DNA of 64,000 bases from Naegleria gruberi (taxonomy: Eukaryota): the NCBI GenBank assembly GCA_000004985.1, contig GG738874.1; one strand, written 5' to 3'. A program made the translations under genes and the position numbers. Positions 10,486 to 49,991 of the stretch are shown in pieces (the stretch's first letter is position 1; each line of letters begins with the position of its first letter). The notes below the pieces were generated by a model. That model had not been told where the DNA came from. It searched no databases and saw nothing but the letters and a program-made list of their open reading frames with translations.

Positions 10486-13400
10486 TTACTTTTCTTCTGT
10501 CATGACAGTTTCATCTTGCTTGGAATCTTCAGAGGATGATTGTTGGTTCTTTTCCTTATTGAGATTTGGTCGTCTGAATCTTGATGATTTAGATTGATTG
10601 GCTGATTCCTCTTCCCTATCATTCGATTCCTCTTCATCAGTTTTAACTTTCTTATTTGGCCTTTCAATATCTGTACTCGATGGTGTAACAGCTTGATTAT
10701 CTTCGGAATTTTCGTTTTCATCATTCTTAAATTCGTCAATTGAACGTTTTCCTGTGAATTTTTCATCTTCTTGAGAACTTGATTGAGCAGGAGTAGTATT
10801 TACATTAGAAGTGGTAGCAGTAGGATTTACAGTTGTTGATTCAGAGGTAGAAGGTGAGGCTGAGGATGAAGCAACAGGTGGAGTTACAACAGGTTTGATT
10901 TGAAGTAAGAGTTGTGCACGAAGACTTTCCTTCACCTTTTCAGCAGCACTCTTCTTTTCTTCATCCTTTTTACGAAGCTCTTCCTTCTTTCGTTCCTCTT
11001 CTTTCTTACGAGCCTCTTCTTCTCTCTTTCGTTCTTCCTCCTTCTTTCGTTCTTCTTCCCTTCTTGTGGCTTCCTCCTTCTTTCGTTCTTCCTCCTTTTT
11101 ACGCTCCTCTTCTTTCTTTCTTTCTTCTTCCTTCTTTCGTTCTTCTTCTTTCTTTCTTTCTTCCTCTTTCTTTTTTTCTTCTTCATCATCTTGTTTTATG
11201 GATTCTTCCTTAGGTGGTTCATCTCTAGTGCTTGGAGAAACACTTTGCTCACCAACAGATTCAGTATTCTTAAGTTTTTCTTCCAATGCCGATTTTTCAT
11301 TCTTTAATGTTTCAATCTTGGCCTTTTGATTACGAAGAATATCCATCATCTTGTCTTTCTTTTCCAATAATTGAGTCTTTTCCTTTTCTAGCTCTGAATG
11401 TTCGGATGACAATTTTGAAAATTTAGACTCTGACTCAGAGTTCTTAGTTTCCAAAGAATTAATCTTTGTCTTGAAAGTGGAAATTTGAATGTTGAGATTT
11501 TGAATATCAATCTTAAGCTGTTTAACCTTTTGAACTTCTGTATTGTACAACTCTTCCTTTTCTTTGACAGATTCTTCAAGAGATGACTTTTCTTTCACCA
11601 ATCTATCATGAACCTCTGGGTCAATTTGCTTGAATTTTTCAACCAAGTGTTGAGCCTTATTTTGATACTTGATAACATCTTCTCTAAGAGTAGATATTTC
11701 CTCTTCCCTCATTTCCTTTTCCTTCCTAAGTTCAATGATAGTTTGATTCATTGGAGCCATTTGCTTTCTAACATCAGTGAGATCTTCTCTTGTTTGATTC
11801 AACATTCTGTTGAGTTGATCATTTTGCTGTCTTAATGAAATATTACTTTCCTTAAAGACTTGGACTTGCTCTTGAAGATCGGCAATTTGTTGTCCAGTAC
11901 GATCTTGCTCTTTGGTATGATTTTGGGCCTTTTCTCTTTCAGTTGATAGCTCTGCTTGGGCATTTGCAAGTTCCTTATAGGCATGCTCTAACTTTTGTTT
12001 AGTATTTTTGAGCTCTTGTTCTGAAATAGCGAGTTTAGATCTTAACATTTCCTTCTCCCTTCTTATGAAAGAAATTGTTTCTTGGAGGCCTAGTACTTCT
12101 TGTGCATTCTCGTGAGAAACATTGTCAGATGAAGATGGAATTGTATTATCTTGCACCTTCTTGAGTTGAATATTTAAAGTTTCAACTCTAGAGAAGGAAA
12201 TTTCCAATTGTCTTTCTAAGTCCTTAACTCTTTGCTCAATTTCGTCTTTTTGTTTGATCAAATCTTCGTTTTGAGTTGTGAGAAGTCCAACTTTTCTCTC
12301 TGTTTCAGTTTCTTGATTTTTAACTGTGTGGTTAGCAGTTTCGAGTGATGCTTGAAGATTTTTAATCTCCTCTTTCTTCTCTTTCAATACTTCGACAGTG
12401 GCAGCATGTCTCATGAGTTCTTGTTCATAATTTTCTTGGGAATCTTTCCAGAGTTGAGTGTGTCTTCTCAAATCTTCTTTCAAAACTTCGATTCTCTTTT
12501 CATAAGTTTCAGCATTAGTCTTATTTTCGTGACCAGTATTTTCGAGAAGTTGCTTTTCCTTCTTATTTTGTTCAATAGATTCATTAAGATCGTGCTTCAA
12601 CTTTTCAATATCATCTTCTCTTTGTTTGAGAGTATGTCTAAGTGAGTCGATTTCTTGCTTGAGATTGGAAATTTCTGATATAAGAGTTTGAGCCTTGGAT
12701 TCAGTTGAATGCTTGAATTTGTCATAAGTTTCTGTCATCTCCTTCAGAGATTGTTCGTTGCTTTCAGCAAGTTCCTTCATTGTTTGAACTTTGGATTTTT
12801 CGTTTTCAAGAGAATCCTTGAGATACTCGTTTTCGTTTTGAAGCTTTGTGAATTGTAATTGAAGCTCAGAAATATCTGTAGAGGCAGTTTCAACGGTAGA
12901 TAAACCTATCATCTTCTTTTCCAAAATCTTGTTTAATCTATCTTCAGCTGCATTCAACTTTTGTTGAAGATTAGTACACTTTTCCATTTCGAATTCATAA
13001 TTAGTTCTCAATCTAGTGACTTCATCCTTCAGCTTTTGTAATTCAGAAATCTTCTTTTCTAACTTTTCATTGCTTTCTTGCTCTTGCAATTCAAGTTGAA
13101 CTCTGAGTTCTTTAGAAAGTACTCTTTCATCATCAAGAGTATGTTTAAGTTGGCTAATTTCTGATTTAGCTGATTCAAGCTCTTGTTGAGTTCTCTTTCT
13201 ATCATTGTCGTCCTTTTGCTCAAGACCTACTTGGATCTTTTGTAAACTAGAATAGAATTCATCGCTTCTTTGCAGTTGTACTTTCAATCCTTCAATTTCA
13301 GAATTCAATCTCTCGGTTCTTTGCTCGTGATATAATTTTTCAGATCTAAGTTGGATAATTTCTCTTTCCAAGTTTCTTATTTGATCATCCTTTGCTTCAT

Positions 13401-15591
13401 ACAAAACTCTTTGCTTATCCATACTATTTTGAAGTGAAGAAATTGTTTTTGTCAGAGAATCATTAATATCTCTAACTCTATTCAACTCTTTCATACTATA
13501 ATCCCTTTCCATAGAAGTGCTTTGATTACTTTCCTTTAAAAATTCAACTTCAGAAGTTAAACGAGCAACACTAGAGTGGAGAGTTGTGATCTTATCATTC
13601 TTGAAAGCAATTTCATCTTGGAGAGCCTTCTTCTCTCTAGCAACTTCTTGTTGAAGCTCTCTAAAGTCTTTCAAGTTCATGAATTCTCTGTTTACATCTT
13701 GTGAAGCATTGGAAGATTTTTGGACAGGTTCTGGAGTTGAAGAGGATGTTGCACTCTTTTCTTCCAACAGTGATTTAAGAATATCTCTTTGTTTGATAAG
13801 AGCTTGAGTTTTTTCTTCTTGGCGTTTGCTTTCTCGTTTTAATTCCTCAACCTGTTTGAGAGCTTCAAGAATCTTTTCTTGGAAGTCTGCTGCCAATAGT
13901 TCTTGGGCATTCTTGGCTTCTTCTTCTTTTCTTGTGGCAAGATCTCTTATTGTGCCAAGGAGTTCTACATTTCTCTTTTGCAATTCATCAATATTATCAA
14001 AAGGTACTAATCTTTGAGTAATTACAGCATTAGCATCCATGTGAGAAGCAGATTCAACACTATAGTGATTTTCTCTCAATAAAGTTCTTACTTGTACAGA
14101 TAAATCTTCAGTAACTTTTTGAGCAGTAGTGAGAGACTTTTTAAGTTTATCCCTTTCGTTTCTAATGTCTATTAATTCGTCCTTCATAGATTGACATGTT
14201 TGAATGAGTTCTTGCTTTTGTTTTGTTAAAATAGTATATGAAGATCTAAGTTGTTCGTATTCCTCTCTCTGAGCTTGCATTATTGGAGCCTTTTCTTCTA
14301 AATCCTTTAATATTCCAGAAAGCACTTCATTTAATCTCTTGTTTTCATTTCTGGACTTTAGTAATTCATCACTAGTTTTTACAAACTTGGTGTAAATATC
14401 ACTAGGGCTAATACCTTGGTTAACTAGGGTTGATGCACGAAGTTGGGCATTTTGCTCCAAGTCGCGATTATGCTTGTTAATTTGTTCTTCCAATTGACGG
14501 ATTTTATCCTTTGATTGTCTTAGTTCTTGAGATATTTCTTCTCTTTCAGTTTCAAAGGTTTGATCCATTCTTTGTTTAGAATCCTTAAGTGTGGAAAGTT
14601 GTTTTTCAAGCTCTTTGATTTTATCTTCCAAATCCTCATGTCTATTTTTGTATAAATCGGATAACCTCTTTTCATTAGAAAGTTCCTCTTTTAACCTATC
14701 AATTTCTTCAAGGTGATTATTCTTACACTCTCTAATCTCGGTTATCTTTTGTTGGTACTTTTGTTGATATTCCTTGTTTGATTGTTCCAAAGAATTCAAT
14801 TTCTCAGTTAAACTAGTTATAGTTTCACTGTCTTTTGTTGCTTGTATTTGGAGGTCATTCAATTGAAGGATGTAATCCGATTTAAGCTTTGTATTTTGTT
14901 CTTGTTTTGATGAAAGCTCCGAGTTAAACCATTGATTTTGCTTTTCTAATGATTCCTTCTCTTGTTGTAGCTTCTCAATAGTAAACTTGAGAGGTAACAA
15001 AGATGAAGAAGTTTCTTGAAGCTTTTCCTCTAGTTCCTTTTTAGATTTAAAATGTTCAGTAATTTTTTGGTTAAGTGACTCGATATGTGCTGTATAGAAT
15101 ATACCAATCAATTAACTATTTAACATACAATTTAGATCATCAACTTCTTTAGTTTTCTTTTCTAATAGTGATGTTAATCTAGATTTTTCAATCTTTAGAT
15201 CTTCATTCTGGGTATTAGCTTGGTCCAACTCCATCCTTTGCTCGTGCCACCTCTTTTCCGCATCTTTAATTTGTTTTGTAAGATGGTCCAATTGTTCCTG
15301 GTAACTTTTGTTTTCGCTCTTGAAATGTTCAATCCTTTCCTTGAGAAGCTGACTATCTTCAAGTTTAGAATTTTCTTGTTGCTCAAATTTGTTCATCAGA
15401 GACTCGTTGGCGAGTCTGATTGTTTTAATTTCCTCTCTACATTCCAAAAGTTCATCGTCCTTTTTAGAAATATATTCTTGGGCCTTTTTAATAATTTCAA
15501 GAGGATTATTGCCGATTTGCTCTAGCTCCTCAGCTGTGAGAAAAGAAAGTTTGGATACTTCATCAGCAAGCGAGCGATCAACTATCGACAT
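10486..15591 (-). CDS. tpr: Nuclear-pore basket coiled-coil protein TPR/Mlp homologue. A 39-nt intron at 15080-15118 contains the apparent stop between the two listed ORFs.
   Basis: About 1700 aa of continuous coiled coil. TPR-specific blocks are present: EKAPIMQAQREEYEQL (TPR has EAKAPILKRQREEYERA) and ISFIRREKEMLRSK (TPR has LRFIRREKEIAETR). The start is MSIVDRSLADE at 15591. The spliced join ...DDLNS|HIESLNQKITEH is in frame. Confidence 0.75.
10965..11195. repeat. 18-nt tandem repeat (about 12 units) encoding (ERKKEE)n inside the TPR coding sequence
   Basis: Near-perfect repeats of ttctttcgttcttcctcc on the + strand. The translation is EERKKEEERKKEEERKKEE... Confidence 0.7.
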
Positions 15592-16427
15592 TTTTTTAAT
15601 GTGTTGTAAGATGATGAAGAATATTCTCATACAAGCATGGTACAAGTAATACAATCACATTGGATTGCCTATTATCATCAAATTGATTCTATCATTTTCA
15701 TTATTGAAGACGAAGGAAGTATTCATAACTGCCAGGAGGTCAAAGTTTTGCAACAACAACAACAAGACGAAACAGTCATGCTGATGTTAAAAATAACAAG
15801 ACAAACAAAAACAATCCGATTTTATTTAAAAAAATTTAGAAATAATTTTTCAATTTTTAATCAAATTTGGCTTTTCCGATATCATATTCCTTTCTCGTCC
15901 TCAATAAATTCAAGTCTTACCAGCAAGGAAAACTAGATTTTTCTTAAAAATCCAACCAAGAACCCAACTTTACTCAACAGTCATACTCGTTTGTTCATTT
16001 CAAGTTTATAATCTCTCCTGCAATTTGGTAGCAAAAACTCATTTTTGAAAAAAGCAGTTTACGCTCAAGCAAAACAACTATCATCAAGATTTAGCTTGAA
16101 AGCGTTCAAACAGCAAGCAAAACAATCATCTTCACCAAACAAACGGAAGAACCAGATTCCGCAACGCACCAAGTAGTAGATTATCAACCATTCTATTTGG
16201 ACTGTATTATAGTAGTAATAATAGTAGTAGTGGTGATTAATCATTGTTTTTCAAGTCTGTCTTGCTTTTTGAAATAATTTAAAGAGAATATTGTTAGCAG
16301 AAGGAATTTAAATATTGGGGAATCTGTATATACAAGATAATTGTACAATTAATTGATGAATCATCATTAGCCTTTGTAAATCTTCCAAACAATTTGTTTG
16401 TAAATTAATAATTATTAATCAATCATC
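15592..16427. promoter_or_regulatory. Divergent intergenic region between tpr (- strand) and the kinase gene (+ strand); a putative shared promoter
   Basis: About 840 bp of AT-rich, ORF-poor sequence with a (tagtag)n microsatellite near 16200-16240. It lies between two start codons that face away from each other. Confidence 0.3.
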
Positions 16428-18908
16428 ATGAAATCACAAAAAACCATTAGTATTCCCACTCCAACTCCAAAACGATCATCAAGAAATACCTCATCCGATG
16501 ATGACGATGATGATGATTCGGATTCATTGACTTTTAGTAGAAATCGTAATTATGGACCAACATCATCCTCACTCAACTCTTCCCTTTTCAAAAACACCTT
16601 ACTCAATAATAGAGAAGCCTATCAAAAACACAAATTACCTTCCCTTACCACCACAACAGCTCCCTCTCTTCCCAAAACACAACAAAAAACCACCAGATCT
16701 GCCTCAATAACAACCAACAATAGAAAACCATCTCCTTCCCTTCTTCAACCTCCTATTTCTTCGAGTTTGCTCACTCCAAACTTTCTAAGCAATACCAATA
16801 ATTTAAAAGACAGCGAGAAGTTATTACTTGATTTTGTTCAAGTATATGAAAAACAACAATCTCTCAAAAGTGCAAGTAGTGCCTCTAATTCATCAGATAA
16901 ATTGAGTGATGATGAAGATCCTTATTTAATTCTTTCTTCATCATTCAATCAAGGTGGATGGGAACACAGCTATTCAAAATTAGAAGAAGAAATATTAGAA
17001 AGTCCAACAATTACTGATCCAGGAAATTATAGTCAGAGCTTTCATTCAATTTCTGAAATTTCTAAAAACAAGCAAAATAAGAGAAATTGGTTCAGATTCA
17101 TGAAAATGGAAGGTGATTCACTTGAAGATTGTTCTGATGATGAATCATCTGCTCCACAAGTTGACAAAAAGGAGATTCTTCTTTTATTCTTGCTTCAACA
17201 TGCTGCCAATCAGTTAAATCCTGATATGGGATTCTTTGTATCATTATGTAAACATTTGACACATCTAGGATACTTTTCAAATAGAATGACAGACGAATCA
17301 TTCATCAAAACTCTATGTAAAGATTTCATGGAAGATATTACAAACATTTTCCCAGTATCAGCACTTGAGGTAGAAGAAACTAATAGAGGCATAGTTAGAT
17401 CAGAAAGTTATTCTTCCTATCTATCTGATATTCCTCATTCTCCAGGTGCAAATAGAGAGTTCTTTGGAGCTCTTGAAAGCTCACCAGTTATTGATTCCAT
17501 GTTTTATAATGCAAAGAGATTAGAATCTGATTATCATCATTTTCAAAAACTTGGAAAGGAGAAACCATACTCTTCTGTAATTAAAGCCATCCATAAGATA
17601 GATGGAAGAGCCTATGCCATCAAGAAGGTTAAATTTCACTTTTCAAATACTTTTGAGCTGGAACATGTGTATTCATATGTTGTAAATGAGATCAAAAATC
17701 TTGCTAAATTAGATAACGAGAATATTATTAGATATAACTCTGCTTGGTTCGAACCTTATAGAGACAACTCTTTACCATCACCCAGTGAGAAGAATTTATC
17801 ATGTTCTCATCCAGAATGTGGTTCTCCAATATGGAGTGATTCATATGTAAATAGTCTTAATATAGAAAATGACTTGAAAAATGAAAGTTTGGAATCCAAG
17901 GGTAAGAAGACGGATGTCGAGTTTGAGTTTACTCCAAAGAGAAAACCAGATATACCACCATCTCCTCCTCCTTCAATGTCCTACTTTGAATTTGCTCTCA
18001 AGAGAGGAAAAGAAACCTCAAAAAGAAAGAGTGAAAGTATTGATAGTACTACACGAGATATAACATCTAATGTAAAGTCAATGCTTCACGAAATGTTCAA
18101 TGTGAATAATCACTTTGAAATGGTACTTTATATTGTTATGCAACTTTGTGAAGGAACAACTCTTGAGAATTGGCTATTGCAGTCAGAAAAGAAAAAGAAT
18201 AGAAAGACCAACCTTATTGACATTTTGAAAATATTCAAAAGAATTGTCAAGGGAGTCTGTCACATTCACGAAAGAGGTCTTGTTCATAATAATTTGAAAC
18301 CAAACAATATCTTTGTAGCTTCAAATCATAGAATCAAAATTGCTGACTTTGGTGTTGCCAAATACTTACAGGAATGCTTGCTTAACCACAAGAAATGTAA
18401 GAACAAAGAATCTTCACCAAATAGAAAGAGATCTCATACATTTAGCGAGCAAGGATCTCTTTATGCCAGTCCAGAACAAATCTTCAATCAAAAATTTGAT
18501 CAAAAGGGAGATATTTATTCATTGGGAGTTATACTTTTTGAGTTGATATCTCCTCCATTTGTAACTACTACAGAGCGAGTTCATGTTCTTTCACAACTTA
18601 GAAAACGAGAAATATCAGAAGAAATGCTCAAATCTTTCCCAAGAGAAATTGAGATAATTAAGCAATGTTTAGACAAACCTAACAATAGGCCAACTGCTCC
18701 TGAACTCCTTCAGAAGGTAACAAGATTGATCAAAGCTTACAAGATTGAAGGTAGATTCTCCTCCTCGGGAGTATTTAAACACACAAATTCTAGCAGTAAT
18801 TTGCACTTTCCTTCTTTTGATACCATACGAGAAAAGAACAAAATTATTGAAGAGCAACAACGACAAATTGAGTTACTGAAAGAACAATTAAGAAAACAAC
18901 AACAATAA
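16428..18908 (+). CDS. eIF2-alpha-kinase-like protein kinase with a large kinase insert. The catalytic-loop motif is HNN instead of HRD, so it may be a pseudokinase.
   Basis: 826-aa ORF. It carries a VAIK-like block (YAIKKVKF), an alphaC glutamate, a long insert between subdomains IV and V (the eIF2AK hallmark), then LVHNNLKPNNIFV, IADFGVAK and LYASPEQI. The N-terminus is Ser/Asp-rich. Confidence 0.7.
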   Translation: MKSQKTISIPTPTPKRSSRNTSSDDDDDDDSDSLTFSRNRNYGPTSSSLNSSLFKNTLLNNREAYQKHKLPSLTTTTAPSLPKTQQKTTRSASITTNNRKPSPSLLQPPISSSLLTPNFLSNTNNLKDSEKLLLDFVQVYEKQQSLKSASSASNSSDKLSDDEDPYLILSSSFNQGGWEHSYSKLEEEILESPTITDPGNYSQSFHSISEISKNKQNKRNWFRFMKMEGDSLEDCSDDESSAPQVDKKEILLLFLLQHAANQLNPDMGFFVSLCKHLTHLGYFSNRMTDESFIKTLCKDFMEDITNIFPVSALEVEETNRGIVRSESYSSYLSDIPHSPGANREFFGALESSPVIDSMFYNAKRLESDYHHFQKLGKEKPYSSVIKAIHKIDGRAYAIKKVKFHFSNTFELEHVYSYVVNEIKNLAKLDNENIIRYNSAWFEPYRDNSLPSPSEKNLSCSHPECGSPIWSDSYVNSLNIENDLKNESLESKGKKTDVEFEFTPKRKPDIPPSPPPSMSYFEFALKRGKETSKRKSESIDSTTRDITSNVKSMLHEMFNVNNHFEMVLYIVMQLCEGTTLENWLLQSEKKKNRKTNLIDILKIFKRIVKGVCHIHERGLVHNNLKPNNIFVASNHRIKIADFGVAKYLQECLLNHKKCKNKESSPNRKRSHTFSEQGSLYASPEQIFNQKFDQKGDIYSLGVILFELISPPFVTTTERVHVLSQLRKREISEEMLKSFPREIEIIKQCLDKPNNRPTAPELLQKVTRLIKAYKIEGRFSSSGVFKHTNSSSNLHFPSFDTIREKNKIIEEQQRQIELLKEQLRKQQQ

Positions 18909-18941: not shown

Positions 18942-20011
18942 TTAATCTTTCTTTTCTTTTCTTTCAATAAATTCACAACACAAAATGAACTTTAAAATTC
19001 TGAGAACGAATACTAAAATTACAATAGCAATCCACAAACCAAGTGATGCCAAATATCCAACAATATACTTGGTTGGATAGTATTCACAATCTTTGTAACT
19101 GTAATTGAATCCATCAGCAGACTTTTCAATTTCAAACAAACCAACATTACCACCAAAATCACCTTGAATTGATTTAACTGTAAATTCTTGAGCTCCTTCC
19201 TTGTGTGTATATTTACAACCAAAGTGATCATGACCATTGAAAATATATTTTGGTTTGAGTTGAGTAAGGATAACTTGTGATGTCTTTGGAGTTAAAAAGT
19301 TTTGCTCAATTGNNNNNNNNNNNNNNNNNNNNNNNNNNNNNNNNNNNNNNNNNNNNNNNNNNCCATACTGTTAATGGTTACAGCCAAAACCTTCCTATTT
19401 CCATTTTCATAAATGATATCTTTTCTATTTTGAACTCCAAAACTAGCAATAAATCTTTGAATTCTAAAGAAATTAGCTTCAAAACCATAACCAATATCAT
19501 GATTACCAGTTAAATTAACCAAATATGGGAAGTTTAAATTACGTAAATCAGAAGAACCTCTCTCTTTTACCATTCTTTGTTCTTCATGTAAATCTCCACT
19601 TCTCATCTTGAATATTCTATTCACAAAACCAAACATTCCAGAAAAGATTGAATTAAATCTATCAACTCTCAAATAAAATTCCTGATTAGAAACGTGTTGA
19701 GATGAGAATAAATCACCCAACATGTAAATTGCATCCGGTCTCAACAAGTAATGAATATTTTGGAATACCAATTTAAAATAATAATCGTTAAAGTAATTAT
19801 TGAGCAATCCATAATTTCCCTGATGATAAACTTTTGTATCTCCTTCCATTTGTGGATCCGCAATCATGGCAATTCTTCTTGAATTACTTTTTGACCAATG
19901 ACAACTCAATGGTGAAAAAGCCATATAACTTGTCATGTACATTAGAGACAAGCAATAAATTAAAGAAACAATCAGGATAAATTTAAAGCATCCCGAAGTT
20001 GTTGTTGACAT
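18942..20011 (-). CDS. Metallophosphoesterase of the MPPE1/CDC1 (PGAP5-like) type, interrupted by a 50-N assembly gap
   Basis: Blocks IAMIADPQMEGD, YMLGDLFS, LTGNHDIGYG and, past the gap, YIFNGHDHFGCKY followed by a C-terminal transmembrane segment. The reading frame differs on the two sides of the N run, which is expected if the gap length is arbitrary. Confidence 0.6.
19313..19362. other. Assembly gap (50 N)
   Basis: A literal run of n in the sequence. Confidence 0.95.
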
Positions 20012-49199: not shown

Positions 49200-49991
49200 N
49201 NNNNNNNNNNNNNNNNNNNNNNNNNNNNNNNNNNNNNNNNNNNNNNNNNNNNNNNNNNNNNNNNNNNNNNNNNNNNNNNNNNNNNNNNNNNNNNNNNNNN
49301 NNNNNNNNNNNNNNNNNNNNNNNNNNNNNNNNNNNNNNNNNNNNNNNNNNNNNNNNNNNNNNNNNNNNNNNNNNNNNNNNNNNNNNNNNNNNNNNNNNNN
49401 NNNNNNNNNNNNNNNNNNNNNNNNNNNNNNNNNNNNNNNNNNNNNNNNNNNNNNNNNNNNNNNNNNNNNNNNNNNNNNNNNNNNNNNNNNNNNNNNNNNN
49501 NNNNNNNNNNNNNNNNNNNNNNNNNNNNNNNNNNNNNNNNNNNNNNNNNNNNNNNNNNNNNNNNNNNNNNNNNNNNNNNNNNNNNNNNNNNNNNNNNNNN
49601 NNNNNNNNNNNNNNNNNNNNNNNNNNNNNNNNNNNNNNNNNNNNNNNNNNNNNNNNNNNNNNNNNNNNNNNNNNNNNNNNNNNNNNNNNNNNNNNNNNNN
49701 NNNNNNNNNNNNNNNNNNNNNNNNNNNNNNNNNNNNNNNNNNNNNNNNNNNNNNNNNNNNNNNNNNNNNNNNNNNNNNNNNNNNNNNNNNNNNNNNNNNN
49801 NNNNNNNNNNNNNNNNNNNNNNNNNNNNNNNNNNNNNNNNNNNNNNNNNNNNNNNNNNNNNNNNNNNNNNNNNNNNNNNNNNNNNNNNNNNNNNNNNNNN
49901 NNNNNNNNNNNNNNNNNNNNNNNNNNNNNNNNNNNNNNNNNNNNNNNNNNNNNNNNNNNNNNNNNNNNNNNNNNNNNNNNNNNNNNNNNNN
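49200..49991. other. Assembly gap (792 N)
   Basis: A literal run of n. Two convergent genes both run into it. Confidence 0.95.

What the first reader, a model, noticed from the sequence alone, without database searches (positions are those of the whole stretch)
16428..18908. eIF2-alpha-kinase-like gene with HRD replaced by HNN in the catalytic loop (candidate pseudokinase)
The domain has the eIF2AK hallmark: a long insert between subdomains IV and V, and YASPEQI in place of APE. The beta3 lysine, the alphaC glutamate and DFG are intact. The catalytic loop reads LVHNNLKPNNIF, so both the Arg and the catalytic Asp of HRD are replaced by Asn. That predicts loss or strong reduction of phosphotransfer while ATP binding is kept. 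A dead GCN2/PERK-like kinase could act as a decoy or scaffold in integrated-stress-response signalling.
Basis: partly seen in the sequence, partly recalled or inferred. Interest (0 to 1): 0.5.

Follow-up and report, generated by a model that had tools for sequence, protein, structure and literature searches.

The report
Conserved dead HRI-like kinase in Naegleria
This Naegleria gruberi gene encodes a stress-kinase look-alike that lost its catalytic residue long ago yet has been kept by selection next to a working sister copy, so it most likely regulates that kinase or its target rather than phosphorylating anything itself.

Summary
ORF 16428-18908 (+) is N. gruberi XP_002676012, annotated as an eIF2-alpha kinase. 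Its catalytic loop reads LVHNNLKPNNIF (HNN = 18285-18293).

It is not a sequencing error. N. lovaniensis, N. fowleri and a metagenomic relative carry HKN, HKN and HRN at syntenic loci. dN/dS is 0.07 overall and 0.005 in the N-lobe.

"ATP binding kept" is therefore unsupported.

The protein is HRI-like, not GCN2- or PERK-like. It has a divergent HRI2_3H helical domain, a split kinase and a C-terminal coiled coil.

It arose by duplication in the Naegleria and Willaertia ancestor. The sister copy (N. gruberi XP_002673550) keeps every catalytic motif. The Willaertia orthologue shares the degraded glycine loop and keeps HRD, but has DFG changed to GFE. Catalysis is therefore not the conserved function.

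Three things are retained: the back-to-back dimer residues (PKR R262/D266/D289/Y293/Y323 equivalents), the alphaG eIF2-alpha-docking residues, and the coiled coil.

Best reading: a non-catalytic partner or competitor of the active paralogue. Whether it activates or inhibits is unknown. I found no paper on it in the library searched. It is a new member of a known kind, of moderate interest.

The parts
16428..18908 (+). Whole gene: an 826-aa HRI-like eIF2-alpha-kinase-family pseudokinase (N. gruberi XP_002676012.1). Single exon, stop codon included.
16428..17027 (+). Low-complexity Ser/Thr/Asp-rich N-terminal region (aa 1-200). Poorly conserved between orthologues.
   Evidence: (pN 0.52 N. gruberi vs N. 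lovaniensis)
17034..17123 (+). Conserved 'QSFH...KRNWFRFMK' motif followed by an acidic stretch (aa 203-232). It is shared with the active paralogues. Function unknown.
17163..17357 (+). Three-helix N-terminal domain (aa 246-310), a divergent relative of Pfam PF22949 HRI2_3H (haem-regulated eIF2-alpha kinase helical domain).
   Evidence: The Pfam HMM gives no hit. An iterated HMM seeded with Pfam-positive domains reaches aa 249-295 at E 2.8e-5 in round 2. hhalign gives probability 92.9%, E 3.7e-7. AF2 predicts helices at aa 247-263, 267-279 and 285-307, with 10-residue-block pLDDT 72-93.
17391..17444 (+). Conserved 'IVRSESYSSYLSDIPHSP' linker motif (aa 322-339). It is shared by both paralogue clades. 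Function unknown; possibly a phospho-site cluster.
17490..17756 (+). Kinase N-lobe (aa 355-443). It contains the dimer-interface residues R364, D368, D392, Y396 and Y436 (equivalents of PKR R262, D266, D289, Y293 and Y323), plus K399 (beta3 Lys) and E421 (alphaC Glu).
   Evidence: dN/dS 0.005
17553..17579 (+). Degenerate glycine-rich loop GKEKPYSSV (aa 376-384). The second Gly is replaced by Glu and the third by Ser, and one residue is inserted. The decay is shared by all five clade members.
17757..18107 (+). Kinase insert between the lobes (aa 444-560). It is mostly variable and predicted disordered.
17943..18005 (+). Conserved island in the insert, 'PPSPPPSMSYFEFALKR' (aa 506-526). It is present in both active and inactive heterolobosean members.
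18108..18752 (+). Kinase C-lobe (aa 561-775).
18279..18314 (+). Catalytic loop LVHNNLKPNNIF (aa 618-629). H620, K624 and N627 are kept. R621 is replaced by Asn.
18291..18293 (+). Codon AAT = N622, replacing the catalytic Asp of HRD. Asn is invariant in the four Naegleria-clade orthologues.
18345..18479 (+). Activation segment from DFG (aa 640-642, intact) to SPEQ (aa 681-684). The PKR T451-equivalent Thr is lost. The PKR T446 / HRI T488-equivalent Thr is T671 here, but it is not conserved in the other orthologues.
18558..18602 (+). alphaG region FVTTTERVHVLSQLR (aa 711-725). T713 and E716 correspond to PKR T487 and E490, which are eIF2-alpha contact positions. Both are conserved in all members.
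18816..18902 (+). C-terminal coiled-coil helix FDTIREKNKIIEEQQRQIELLKEQLRKQQ (aa 797-825). The 'KEKNRIIEEQQ' core is shared with the active paralogue clade.
   Evidence: block pLDDT 90-97

Best explanation
The gene encodes a genuine pseudokinase that selection has maintained. It is the inactive paralogue of an HRI-type eIF2-alpha kinase.

History. A duplication in the common ancestor of Naegleria and Willaertia gave two copies.
- One copy keeps every catalytic motif: N. gruberi XP_002673550, N. fowleri FDP41_008538 and Willaertia KAL9648782.
- The other copy first lost its glycine-rich loop. It then lost a different essential acidic residue in each lineage: the HRD Asp became Asn in Naegleria, and the DFG Asp became Gly in Willaertia.

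What is shown and what is inferred. The motif losses are shown. Abolition or near-abolition of phosphotransfer to eIF2-alpha is inferred from them. What selection preserves is the non-catalytic equipment of an eIF2-alpha kinase:
- the back-to-back N-lobe dimer interface, including the Arg-Asp salt bridge
- the Lys-Glu pair that holds an active-like alphaC
- the alphaG helix that docks eIF2-alpha
- the N-terminal HRI-type helical domain
- the C-terminal coiled coil, which it shares almost motif-for-motif with the active paralogue

Proposed mechanism (inferred). The protein pairs with, or competes with, the active paralogue through the dimer interface and coiled coil. It thereby tunes eIF2-alpha phosphorylation. 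It could act as an allosteric partner, as HER3 does for EGFR. It could instead act as a natural dominant-negative. The sequence does not tell which.
For: Real, not an error:
- Asn codons are present in four independent assemblies.
- Synteny with the TPR/Mlp, metallophosphoesterase and Syja_N neighbours is conserved. In Willaertia, TPR/Mlp is a neighbour.

Under selection:
- NG86 dN/dS for N. lovaniensis vs N. fowleri is 0.074 overall, 0.005 in the N-lobe and 0.052 in the C-lobe.

Inactivation:
- HRD Asp is replaced by Asn, and the glycine loop has lost two of its three Gly and gained an insertion.
- Yeast GCN2 D835N carries the same change (IIHRNLKPMNIF) and is deposited as an 'inactivating mutant'.
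- The Willaertia orthologue has GGFES in place of GDFG, inside a continuous 466-aa ORF.
- The activation-loop Thr residues equivalent to PKR T446 / HRI T488 and to PKR T451 are conserved in all 7 active-looking relatives. They are lost in most members of the inactive clade.
- Pfam Pkinase scores fall from 154-164 bits in active relatives to 99-134 bits.

Duplication history:
- In an NJ tree of 498 columns with 200 bootstraps, support is 100% for the inactive clade including Willaertia, 100% for the active clade, and 100% for the two as sisters. Acrasis kona and metagenomic sequences, all active-looking, lie outside.
- Since the Naegleria-Willaertia split the inactive copy has kept less identity than the active copy: N-lobe 53% vs 76%, C-lobe 50% vs 70%.

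Retained non-catalytic surfaces:
- Equivalents of PKR R262, D266, D289, Y293 and Y323 (Tyr or Phe at the last), K296, E308, K416, N419, E480, T487 and E490 are all kept.
- The coiled coil is 52-69% identical between paralogues but only 24% identical to the outgroup.

HRI-type architecture.

Precedents:
- HER3 and JAK2 JH2 carry HRN in place of HRD.
- The GCN2 pseudokinase domain is needed for GCN2 activation.
- Viral PK2 inhibits an HRI-like kinase.
Against: - No experiment or expression data exist for any member. No paper naming these genes was found.
- HER3, which also carries HRN, is reported competent to autophosphorylate (paper title seen). Zero activity cannot be claimed from sequence.
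- K399, E421, K624, N627 and, in Naegleria, DFG are conserved. This could mean nucleotide binding or weak catalysis is still selected.
- Heterodimerisation with the paralogue is inferred only from conserved residues. No co-evolution test or complex model was run.
- The NJ grouping of two long branches could be inflated by long-branch attraction. Shared derived motifs and the TPR/Mlp neighbour argue against this.
- The HRI2_3H assignment rests on profile methods. The Pfam HMM itself gives no hit.
Confidence: 0.6

Rival explanations
1. eIF2-alpha decoy. The protein acts mainly by binding eIF2-alpha through its intact alphaG surface without phosphorylating it. It shields Ser51 from the active kinases and damps the stress response. 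Pairing with the paralogue would not be required.
For: - The alphaG contact positions equivalent to PKR T487, E490 and E480 are invariant.
- The SPEQ/P+1 region is kept.
- The catalytic residues are gone.
Against: - The dimer interface and coiled coil are conserved as strongly as alphaG, and a pure substrate trap would not need them.
- In PKR, substrate docking depends on an ordered P+1 loop stabilised by phospho-T446. That Thr is not conserved in this clade.
- eIF2-alpha is abundant, so stoichiometric sequestration would need high expression. This point rests on general knowledge.
Confidence: 0.2
2. Atypical but active kinase. Asn622 and the altered glycine loop still allow slow or unconventional phosphotransfer, as reported for HER3 and JAK2 JH2. 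Under this reading the protein is a low-activity eIF2-alpha kinase or a kinase with other substrates.
For: - K399, E421, K624, N627 and DFG are conserved in Naegleria.
- HER3 and JAK2 JH2, both with HRN, bind ATP and Mg2+ and have been reported to autophosphorylate.
- N. gruberi retains the HT threonine, T671.
Against: - The same D-to-N change inactivates GCN2.
- The glycine loop is degraded in all members.
- The Willaertia orthologue lacks the Mg-binding DFG Asp instead. No single catalytic mechanism is therefore conserved across the clade.
- The activation-loop phospho-acceptors are not conserved.
- There is no acidic residue nearby in the catalytic loop that could substitute.
Confidence: 0.12
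3. Repurposed scaffold unrelated to eIF2-alpha. After duplication the fold was recruited to another pathway. The eIF2-alpha-kinase surfaces are conserved only for structural reasons.
For: - The clade evolves faster than its active sister.
- It has clade-specific invariant motifs: YLQECLL, GVCHIH and IVMQLC.
Against: - Surface-exposed, function-specific positions are kept, although they are not needed for folding. These are the inter-protomer salt bridge and alphaG T713/E716.
- The regulatory N-terminal domain, the insert motif and the coiled coil are all co-retained with the active paralogue.
Confidence: 0.07
4. Artefact or decaying pseudogene. The HNN would be a sequencing or assembly error, or the gene would be drifting.
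For: The assembly around it contains gaps: N runs at 19313-19362 and 49200-49991.
Against: - The reading frame is intact at 826-877 aa in four species, plus Willaertia.
- Asn codons appear in four independent assemblies.
- dN/dS is 0.07.
- There are no Ns inside the gene.
Confidence: 0.01

Closest known systems
HRI / EIF2AK1 (haem-regulated eIF2-alpha kinase), including fungal Hri-type kinases that carry Pfam HRI2_3H
   Same: - The best PDB sequence match is the HRI kinase domain, 9rhh, at E 6.5e-37.
- The order of parts is the same: an N-terminal helical domain, an N-lobe, a long disordered insert, a C-lobe and a C-terminal coiled coil.
- The N-terminal domain matches HRI2_3H-bearing proteins by hhalign at 92.9% probability. 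That set includes an annelid EIF2AK1.
- The YASPEQ and T..ER alphaG motifs are shared.
   Different: - The catalytic Asp is Asn and the glycine loop is degenerate.
- The T488-equivalent autophosphorylation site is not conserved in the clade.
- The Pfam HRI2_3H HMM does not score it.
- Haem-binding residues were not examined.
- It has a long low-complexity N-terminal extension.
Yeast GCN2 D835N (engineered kinase-dead mutant, PDB 1zxe)
   Same: It carries the identical substitution at the identical position in the same kinase family: IIHRNLKPMNIF against LVH[NKR]NLKPNNIF. It still folds as an eIF2-alpha-kinase domain.
   Different: It is a laboratory point mutant of an otherwise intact enzyme. 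The Naegleria protein is a natural, conserved gene that also has glycine-loop and activation-loop changes.
GCN2 pseudokinase domain
   Same: It is a non-catalytic kinase-like module in the eIF2-alpha kinase system. It lacks the HRD Asp (HKV) and has a poor P-loop. It is needed for activation of the adjacent kinase and is proposed to form back-to-back dimers.
   Different: - It sits in cis inside GCN2 and lacks the VAIK Lys.
- It is reported to be most related to MAP3K kinases.
- The Naegleria protein is a free-standing full-length paralogue with its own regulatory domains, an intact VAIK Lys and an intact alphaG.
HER3/ErbB3 and JAK2 JH2 (HRN pseudokinases)
   Same: Both have HRD changed to HRN while other nucleotide-binding residues are retained. 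Both act by allosteric regulation of an active relative through dimerisation.
   Different: They are tyrosine-kinase-group proteins from unrelated families. HER3 forms head-to-tail dimers, not back-to-back N-lobe dimers. Their glycine loops are largely intact (my own knowledge).
Baculovirus PK2
   Same: It is an eIF2-alpha-kinase-derived non-catalytic protein that binds an HRI-like kinase and inhibits it.
   Different: PK2 is viral and truncated to a C-lobe mimic plus an N-terminal extension. It works by pulling out subdomains III-IV. The Naegleria protein is cellular, has both lobes and keeps the normal dimer interface.

Membership tests
eIF2-alpha kinase (PEK) family | A kinase domain closest in sequence and fold to HRI, GCN2, PERK and PKR | tested here: met
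   PDB phmmer gives eIF2-alpha kinases at 6.5e-37 to 1.8e-27 and the next family at 3.8e-16. The top 34 Foldseek PDB hits are all GCN2 or PERK, with TM-score normalised to the target of 0.79-0.86.
eIF2-alpha kinase (PEK) family | A large insert between the N-lobe (beta4) and beta5 | tested here: met
   A 117-aa insert at aa 444-560. It is disordered in the AF2 model apart from one conserved island.
eIF2-alpha kinase (PEK) family | The back-to-back N-lobe dimer interface, with the conserved Arg-Asp salt bridge (PKR R262-D266) | tested here: met
   R364, D368, D392, Y396 and Y436 align to PKR R262, D266, D289, Y293 and Y323. They are conserved in all five clade members, with Tyr or Phe at the last position. 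Actual dimerisation was not tested.
eIF2-alpha kinase (PEK) family | An alphaG helix with the substrate-docking residues (PKR T487, E490; E480) | tested here: met
   T713, E716 and E705 are invariant across the inactive and active clades.
eIF2-alpha kinase (PEK) family | A complete catalytic apparatus: GxGxxG, VAIK Lys, HRD Asp and DFG Asp | tested here: not met
   The HRD Asp is Asn. The second and third Gly of the glycine loop are lost. The VAIK Lys and DFG are present.
eIF2-alpha kinase (PEK) family | Activation-loop autophosphorylation Thr (PKR T446 / HRI T488; PKR T451) | tested here: not met
   The T451 equivalent is G/S/S/A/F in the clade. The T446 equivalent is kept only in N. gruberi (T671). 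Both are Thr in all 7 active-looking relatives.
eIF2-alpha kinase (PEK) family | Phosphorylates eIF2-alpha Ser51 | not testable with these tools
   Needs an in vitro kinase assay or a yeast gcn2-delta assay.
HRI (EIF2AK1) subfamily | An N-terminal helical (haem-binding / HRI2_3H) domain directly upstream of the kinase | tested here: inconclusive
   The Pfam PF22949 HMM gives no hit. A shallow hhalign gives probability 9.7%, E 0.0033. A deeper hhalign gives probability 92.9%, E 3.7e-7 over 61 columns. An iterated HMM reaches it in round 2. AF2 predicts three helices. Homology is likely, but the domain is divergent.
HRI (EIF2AK1) subfamily | A C-terminal coiled coil after the C-lobe | tested here: met
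   AF2 predicts a helix at aa 797-825 with block pLDDT 90-97. HRI is described with a likely coiled coil at residues 586-630.
HRI (EIF2AK1) subfamily | Haem-binding His residues and Cys-Pro motifs; regulation by haem | not tested
   Positional equivalents of human H119/H120, C411-P412 and C553-P554 were not mapped.
Pseudokinase (sequence definition) | Lacks at least one of the VAIK Lys, the HRD Asp and the DFG Asp | tested here: met
   N622 replaces the HRD Asp. The definition is as given (PMC13519141).
Pseudokinase (sequence definition) | Maintained by selection, so not a decaying gene | tested here: met
   dN/dS is 0.074. Five orthologues have intact ORFs.
Pseudokinase (sequence definition) | Lack of phosphotransfer activity; nucleotide-binding class | not testable with these tools
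   Needs a kinase assay and a thermal-shift or TNP-ATP binding assay.
GCN2 (EIF2AK4) | RWD, pseudokinase, HisRS-like and C-terminal domains flanking the kinase | tested here: not met
   Pfam finds only kinase-type models: Pkinase, PK_Tyr_Ser-Thr and a weak sub-threshold ABC1 hit. At 826 aa there is no room for a HisRS-like domain.
PERK (EIF2AK3) | A luminal beta-propeller (PQQ_2-type) domain and a transmembrane segment N-terminal to the kinase | tested here: not met
   There is no such Pfam hit. Distant hits P0005 and P0013 do carry PF13360, so the method can detect it.

The most novel reading that the evidence does not exclude
Naegleria and Willaertia may run their HRI-type stress response through an obligate kinase-pseudokinase pair. 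In this reading the dead paralogue is the allosteric 'activator' protomer of a back-to-back heterodimer. The live paralogue would then cis-autophosphorylate and phosphorylate eIF2-alpha. This would be the eIF2-alpha-kinase equivalent of HER3-EGFR or KSR-RAF. It would also be a natural experiment on whether eIF2-alpha kinase dimers need one catalytic protomer or two.
Probability: 0.25. Interest if true: 0.6.

Novelty: new member of a known kind. Interest (0 to 1): 0.42.

Why it matters
Pseudokinase paralogues that control active kinases are well known. Examples are HER3, KSR, STRAD and the JAK JH2 domains. Inside the eIF2-alpha kinase family, the non-catalytic relatives that surfaced in my searches are the in-cis pseudokinase domain of GCN2 and the truncated viral PK2.

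A free-standing, full-length cellular eIF2-alpha-kinase pseudokinase would add a new regulatory layer to the integrated stress response of an early-branching eukaryote lineage. This one keeps the sensor domain, the dimer interface, the substrate-docking helix and the coiled coil.

The lineage includes the lethal pathogen N. fowleri. Its orthologue is FDP41_013503 and its active paralogue is FDP41_008538.

The pair of lineages with alternative lesions gives an unusually clean evolutionary argument that the conserved function is non-catalytic. Naegleria has HRD changed to HxN, and Willaertia has DFG changed to GFE.

The system could also serve as a natural heterodimer for the cis-versus-trans autophosphorylation question in this kinase family.

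It also shows that the current database name, 'eIF2-alpha kinase', is probably wrong as a statement of activity.

Tried and rejected
- AlphaFold2 on the full-length protein with the 4-sequence alignment gave pLDDT 35.7 and was discarded. A 53-sequence alignment of aa 240-826 gave a usable model with pLDDT 75.4.
- The Pfam scan of the N-terminal region found no HRI2_3H hit. It gave only a sub-threshold ENTH hit (E 0.021, 15.3 bits against a cut-off of 24), which I rejected as noise.
- The first hhalign of the N-terminal domain used 4 vs 3 sequences and was weak (probability 9.7%, E 0.0033). It was superseded by the deeper comparison.
- The Foldseek search against afdb50 could not be run because the library was not available. 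The 3H domain therefore has no independent fold-level match.
- dN/dS between N. gruberi and the other species could not be computed for most regions because synonymous sites are saturated (pS about 0.8). Only the N. lovaniensis vs N. fowleri pair is informative.
- Literature searches found nothing on this gene. I searched for Naegleria with eIF2, kinome, pseudokinase and ISR, and for the accession numbers. The Naegleria pangenome paper mentions only eIF2 gamma.
- Sequencing error and pseudogene were considered and rejected.
- GCN2- or PERK-type architecture was considered and rejected.
- A compensating acidic residue in the catalytic loop was looked for. None is present in H-[NKR]-N-L-K-P-N-N-I-F.
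- I did not inventory GCN2- or PERK-type kinases or eIF2-alpha itself in N. gruberi. The remaining database searches would not have surfaced them reliably.


Full report
**What is in the sequence**

The finding lies in a single uninterrupted ORF, window 16428-18908 on the + strand. It has 826 codons. [quoted passage not shown] The window is therefore Naegleria gruberi nuclear DNA at about 33% GC.

The catalytic loop reads LVHNNLKPNNIF at aa 618-629, nt 18279-18314. The codons cat-aat-aat at 18285-18293 encode H620-N621-N622.

- beta3 Lys K399
- alphaC Glu E421
- DFG at aa 640-642
- SLYASPEQIF
- a 117-aa insert between the lobes (aa 444-560)

**Family assignment**

Pfam scores the protein as Pkinase at 4.6e-36. 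Against all PDB sequences the best hits are HRI (9rhh, 6.5e-37), then GCN2, PERK and PKR down to 1.8e-27. The next kinase family appears only at 3.8e-16.

An AlphaFold2 model of aa 240-826 was built on a 53-sequence alignment. It has mean pLDDT 75.4, with both lobes above 90. By Foldseek it matches only GCN2 and PERK structures in the top 34 ranks, with TM-scores normalised to the target of about 0.8. The protein clearly belongs to the eIF2-alpha kinase family by descent.

The glycine-rich loop is also degraded. Active relatives have GKGAFGxV. This protein has GKEKPYSSV: the second Gly is Glu, the third Gly is Ser, and one residue is inserted. The prediction that 'ATP binding is kept' is therefore not safe.

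**Not an error and not a dying gene**

A search of 5.8 billion proteins found three close homologues of 845-877 aa:
- N. lovaniensis C9374_013328
- a cluster that contains N. fowleri FDP41_013503
- a metagenomic sequence

Their catalytic loops read HKN, HKN and HRN. The Asn that replaces the catalytic Asp is invariant, while the Arg position drifts. The Asn codons are AAT, AAT, AAT and AAC.

All three loci have the same neighbours as the window: a TPR/Mlp nucleoporin-like gene upstream on the opposite strand, and a metallophosphoesterase and a Syja_N gene downstream. These are true orthologues.

Nei-Gojobori dN/dS for N. lovaniensis vs N. fowleri (dS 0.77) is as follows:

| Region | dN/dS |
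|---|---|
| Overall | 0.074 |
| N-lobe | 0.005 |
| C-lobe | 0.052 |
| N-terminal domain | 0.076 |
| Insert | 0.139 |

The kinase-like domain is the most constrained part of the protein.

**How unusual it is among its relatives**

An exhaustive HMMER search of 1.84 billion cluster representatives with the kinase region gave 393 hits at or below 1e-30. I scanned the top 150 for motifs. Every close relative outside the Naegleria cluster has HRD (a few insect HRIs have HHD), and nearly all have a canonical GxGxFGxV. The only other HRN loops are in secondary kinase-like domains of two arthropod proteins.

**A duplication with one live and one dead copy**

The nearest relatives were named by cluster look-up:
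- N. gruberi NAEGRDRAFT_58976 / XP_002673550 (931 aa)
- N. fowleri FDP41_008538
- two Willaertia magna proteins, KAL9648782 (1124 aa) and KAL9653862 (843 aa)
- Acrasis kona KAL0486766

All share one architecture with the query:
- a KRNWF motif followed by an acidic stretch
- a helical domain 'DKKE.L.LFLLQH..NPD..FF..LC..L..GY'
- an RSES motif
- the N-lobe
- an insert with a conserved 'SPPxNMSYLEFALE' island
- the C-lobe
- a coiled coil 'KEKNRIIEEQQ'

I built a neighbour-joining tree on 498 trimmed columns with 200 bootstraps. Support is 100% for each of three groupings: the four HxN sequences plus Willaertia KAL9653862; the three active-looking Naegleria and Willaertia proteins; and these two clades as sisters. 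Acrasis and the metagenomic sequences, all active-looking, fall outside.

The duplication therefore predates the Naegleria-Willaertia split. Long-branch attraction is a caveat. The Willaertia 843-aa protein nevertheless shares derived motifs with the Naegleria HxN proteins: IVMQLC, GVCHIH, SLYASPEQxF, TERVHVLxQLR and the degraded glycine loop. Its gene also lies next to a TPR/Mlp gene.

**The strongest argument that catalysis is not the conserved function**

The Willaertia orthologue keeps HRD. Its glycine loop is more degraded still (INPSKQVPLHPSSCV). Its DFG reads GFE ('KIGGFESIFIKY'), so it lacks the Mg-binding Asp. That motif lies in the middle of a continuous 466-aa ORF, encoded by GGA GGC TTT GAA. 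It is not an intron-annotation artefact.

The two sister lineages share the glycine-loop decay. Each then lost a different essential acidic residue.

The activation-loop threonines add to this. [quoted passage not shown] In the dead clade, the T446 equivalent survives only in N. gruberi (T671). The T451 equivalent is G/S/S/A/F.

Pfam Pkinase scores are 154-164 bits in the active relatives and 99-134 bits in the dead clade. Since the Naegleria-Willaertia split, the dead copy has kept 53% identity in the N-lobe and 50% in the C-lobe. The live copy has kept 76% and 70%.

**A family-specific precedent for the substitution**

PDB entry 1zxe is titled 'eIF2alpha Protein Kinase GCN2: D835N Inactivating Mutant'. 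Its sequence reads IIHRNLKPMNIF where the wild type has IIHRDLKPMNIF, and residue 835 is the HRD Asp. The natural Naegleria change is the same substitution at the same position in the same family.

A recent review notes that HER3 and JAK2 JH2 also carry HRN and still bind ATP and Mg2+. A residual activity cannot be excluded from sequence alone.

**What is kept**

I verified the human PKR kinase-domain sequence against PDB 6d3k and aligned it to the family. The positions below are conserved in all five members of the dead clade, with Tyr or Phe at the Y323 equivalent.

- Back-to-back dimer interface: PKR R262, D266, D289, Y293 and Y323 correspond to R364, D368, D392, Y396 and Y436. [quoted passage not shown]
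- Other catalytic-cleft residues: the equivalents of K296, E308, H412, K416 and N419 are kept.
- Substrate-docking alphaG: the equivalents of E480, T487 and E490 are E705, T713 and E716. PKR positions 486-493 are listed among the predicted eIF2-alpha contacts.
- Coiled coil: it is 52-69% identical between the dead and live paralogues but only 24% identical to the Acrasis outgroup.

**HRI-type, not GCN2- or PERK-type**

No RWD, HisRS-like or luminal domain is detected. Human HRI is described as a haem-binding N-terminal domain, a split kinase with an insert of about 130 aa, and a C-terminal coiled coil. It forms an obligate back-to-back dimer.

Distant hits from fungi and other organisms carry Pfam PF22949 (HRI2_3H) directly upstream of the kinase. 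The Pfam HMM does not score the Naegleria protein.

Three lines of profile evidence point the same way:
- An HMM seeded with three Pfam-positive domains picks up Acrasis in round 1 and the N. gruberi protein (aa 249-295) in round 2 at E 2.8e-5.
- A profile-profile comparison of 11 heterolobosean sequences against 21 HRI2_3H-bearing sequences gives 92.9% probability and E 3.7e-7 over 61 columns. The 21 include an annelid EIF2AK1.
- AlphaFold2 predicts three helices at aa 247-263, 267-279 and 285-307, and a confident terminal helix at aa 797-825.

I regard the HRI-type assignment as likely. The domain is divergent, and haem binding was not examined.

**Mechanism**

Shown:
- The catalytic Asp and the glycine loop are lost.
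- The gene is under purifying selection.
- It arose by duplication of an active-looking HRI-type kinase.
- The dimer-interface, alphaG, sensor-domain and coiled-coil residues are retained.

Inferred:
- Phosphotransfer is abolished or nearly so.
- The protein acts through protein-protein contacts that a normal eIF2-alpha kinase uses. The most economical route is pairing with, or competing with, the co-retained live paralogue through the N-lobe interface and coiled coil. Binding of eIF2-alpha through alphaG is a second possibility.

Not determinable here:
- The direction of the effect is unknown. It depends on whether activation-loop phosphorylation in these dimers occurs in cis or in trans. That question is still debated for PKR.

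**Comparison with known systems and novelty**

The closest functional analogues are these:
- The GCN2 pseudokinase domain. It acts in cis, lacks the VAIK Lys and the HRD Asp, and is needed for activation.
- HER3 and JAK2 JH2, which are HRN pseudokinases that regulate active relatives.
- Baculovirus PK2, a truncated eIF2-alpha-kinase mimic that inhibits an HRI-like kinase.

None of these is a free-standing, full-length cellular eIF2-alpha-kinase paralogue with its regulatory domains intact. I found no paper that mentions this gene, its orthologues or Naegleria eIF2-alpha kinases. That library lacks most subscription-journal papers, including the large 2019 pseudokinase census, so prior cataloguing cannot be excluded.

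I classify it as a new member of a known kind: a pseudokinase paralogue of an active kinase, in a family where that arrangement has not been described. Interest is moderate. It would not astonish a kinase specialist. It is well supported, it sits in the lineage of a lethal pathogen, and it is directly testable.

Noticed in passing
L004:6061-6096 (Willaertia magna JBEGDK010000047.1; protein KAL9653862.1, aa 652-663): The Willaertia orthologue of this gene keeps HRD but reads KIGGFESIFIKY where DFG should be. Its glycine loop carries a 6-residue insertion. This is an independent, different catalytic lesion in the same orthologous clade.
   Followed up: yes
window 17943-18005 (aa 506-526): There is a strongly conserved island, 'SPPxNMSYLEFALE', inside the otherwise variable and disordered kinase insert. 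It is present in both the active and inactive heterolobosean family members. AF2 predicts a short helix there. Its function is unknown.
   Followed up: partly
window 17034-17123 and 17391-17444: Two short conserved motifs flank the helical domain: 'KRNWFRF' followed by an acidic run, and 'IVRSESYSSYLS'. Both paralogue clades share them. They may be docking or phosphorylation sites.
   Followed up: no
window 10486-15654 (- strand): A very long coiled-coil ORF (1541 aa, plus an adjoining 180-aa ORF that is probably an upstream exon) is the divergently transcribed neighbour. The N. lovaniensis counterpart carries the Pfam Nucleoprot-TPR / TPR_MLP1_2 domains. This neighbour relationship is conserved in N. 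lovaniensis, N. fowleri, the metagenomic relative and, rearranged, in Willaertia.
   Followed up: partly
window 19292-20011 (- strand), N run 19313-19362: A metallophosphoesterase-like ORF (motifs ...IADPQ..., GNHD) lies downstream on the opposite strand. A 50-N assembly gap interrupts it. The N. lovaniensis syntenic gene has a weak Metallophos hit.
   Followed up: partly
window 49200-49991: A 792-base run of N (an assembly gap) explains the apparent GC dip to 0.21 in the 48-50 kb composition bin. It is not a real AT-rich feature.
   Followed up: yes
P0028 (Halotydeus destructor KAI1278057.1) and P0062 (Glossina brevipalpis A0A1A9WNU6): Two arthropod proteins among the top 150 relatives contain more than one eIF2-alpha-kinase-like domain. 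One domain in each reads HRN (IIHRNLKPSNIF and LIHRNLKAKNIF). These could be tandem pseudokinase domains or fused gene models.
   Followed up: no
P0055, P0066, P0094, P0154 (Panstrongylus, Kerria and Anabrus EIF2AK1, plus an unnamed Logan sequence): These proteins read IVHHDIKPSNIF, with HHD in place of HRD. My regular expression found no canonical GxGxxG loop in them. The three named ones are insect proteins, and one is annotated EIF2AK1. P0055, P0066 and P0094 are strong, full-length HRI2_3H matches in my HMM. P0154 gives only a late, partial match.
   Followed up: no
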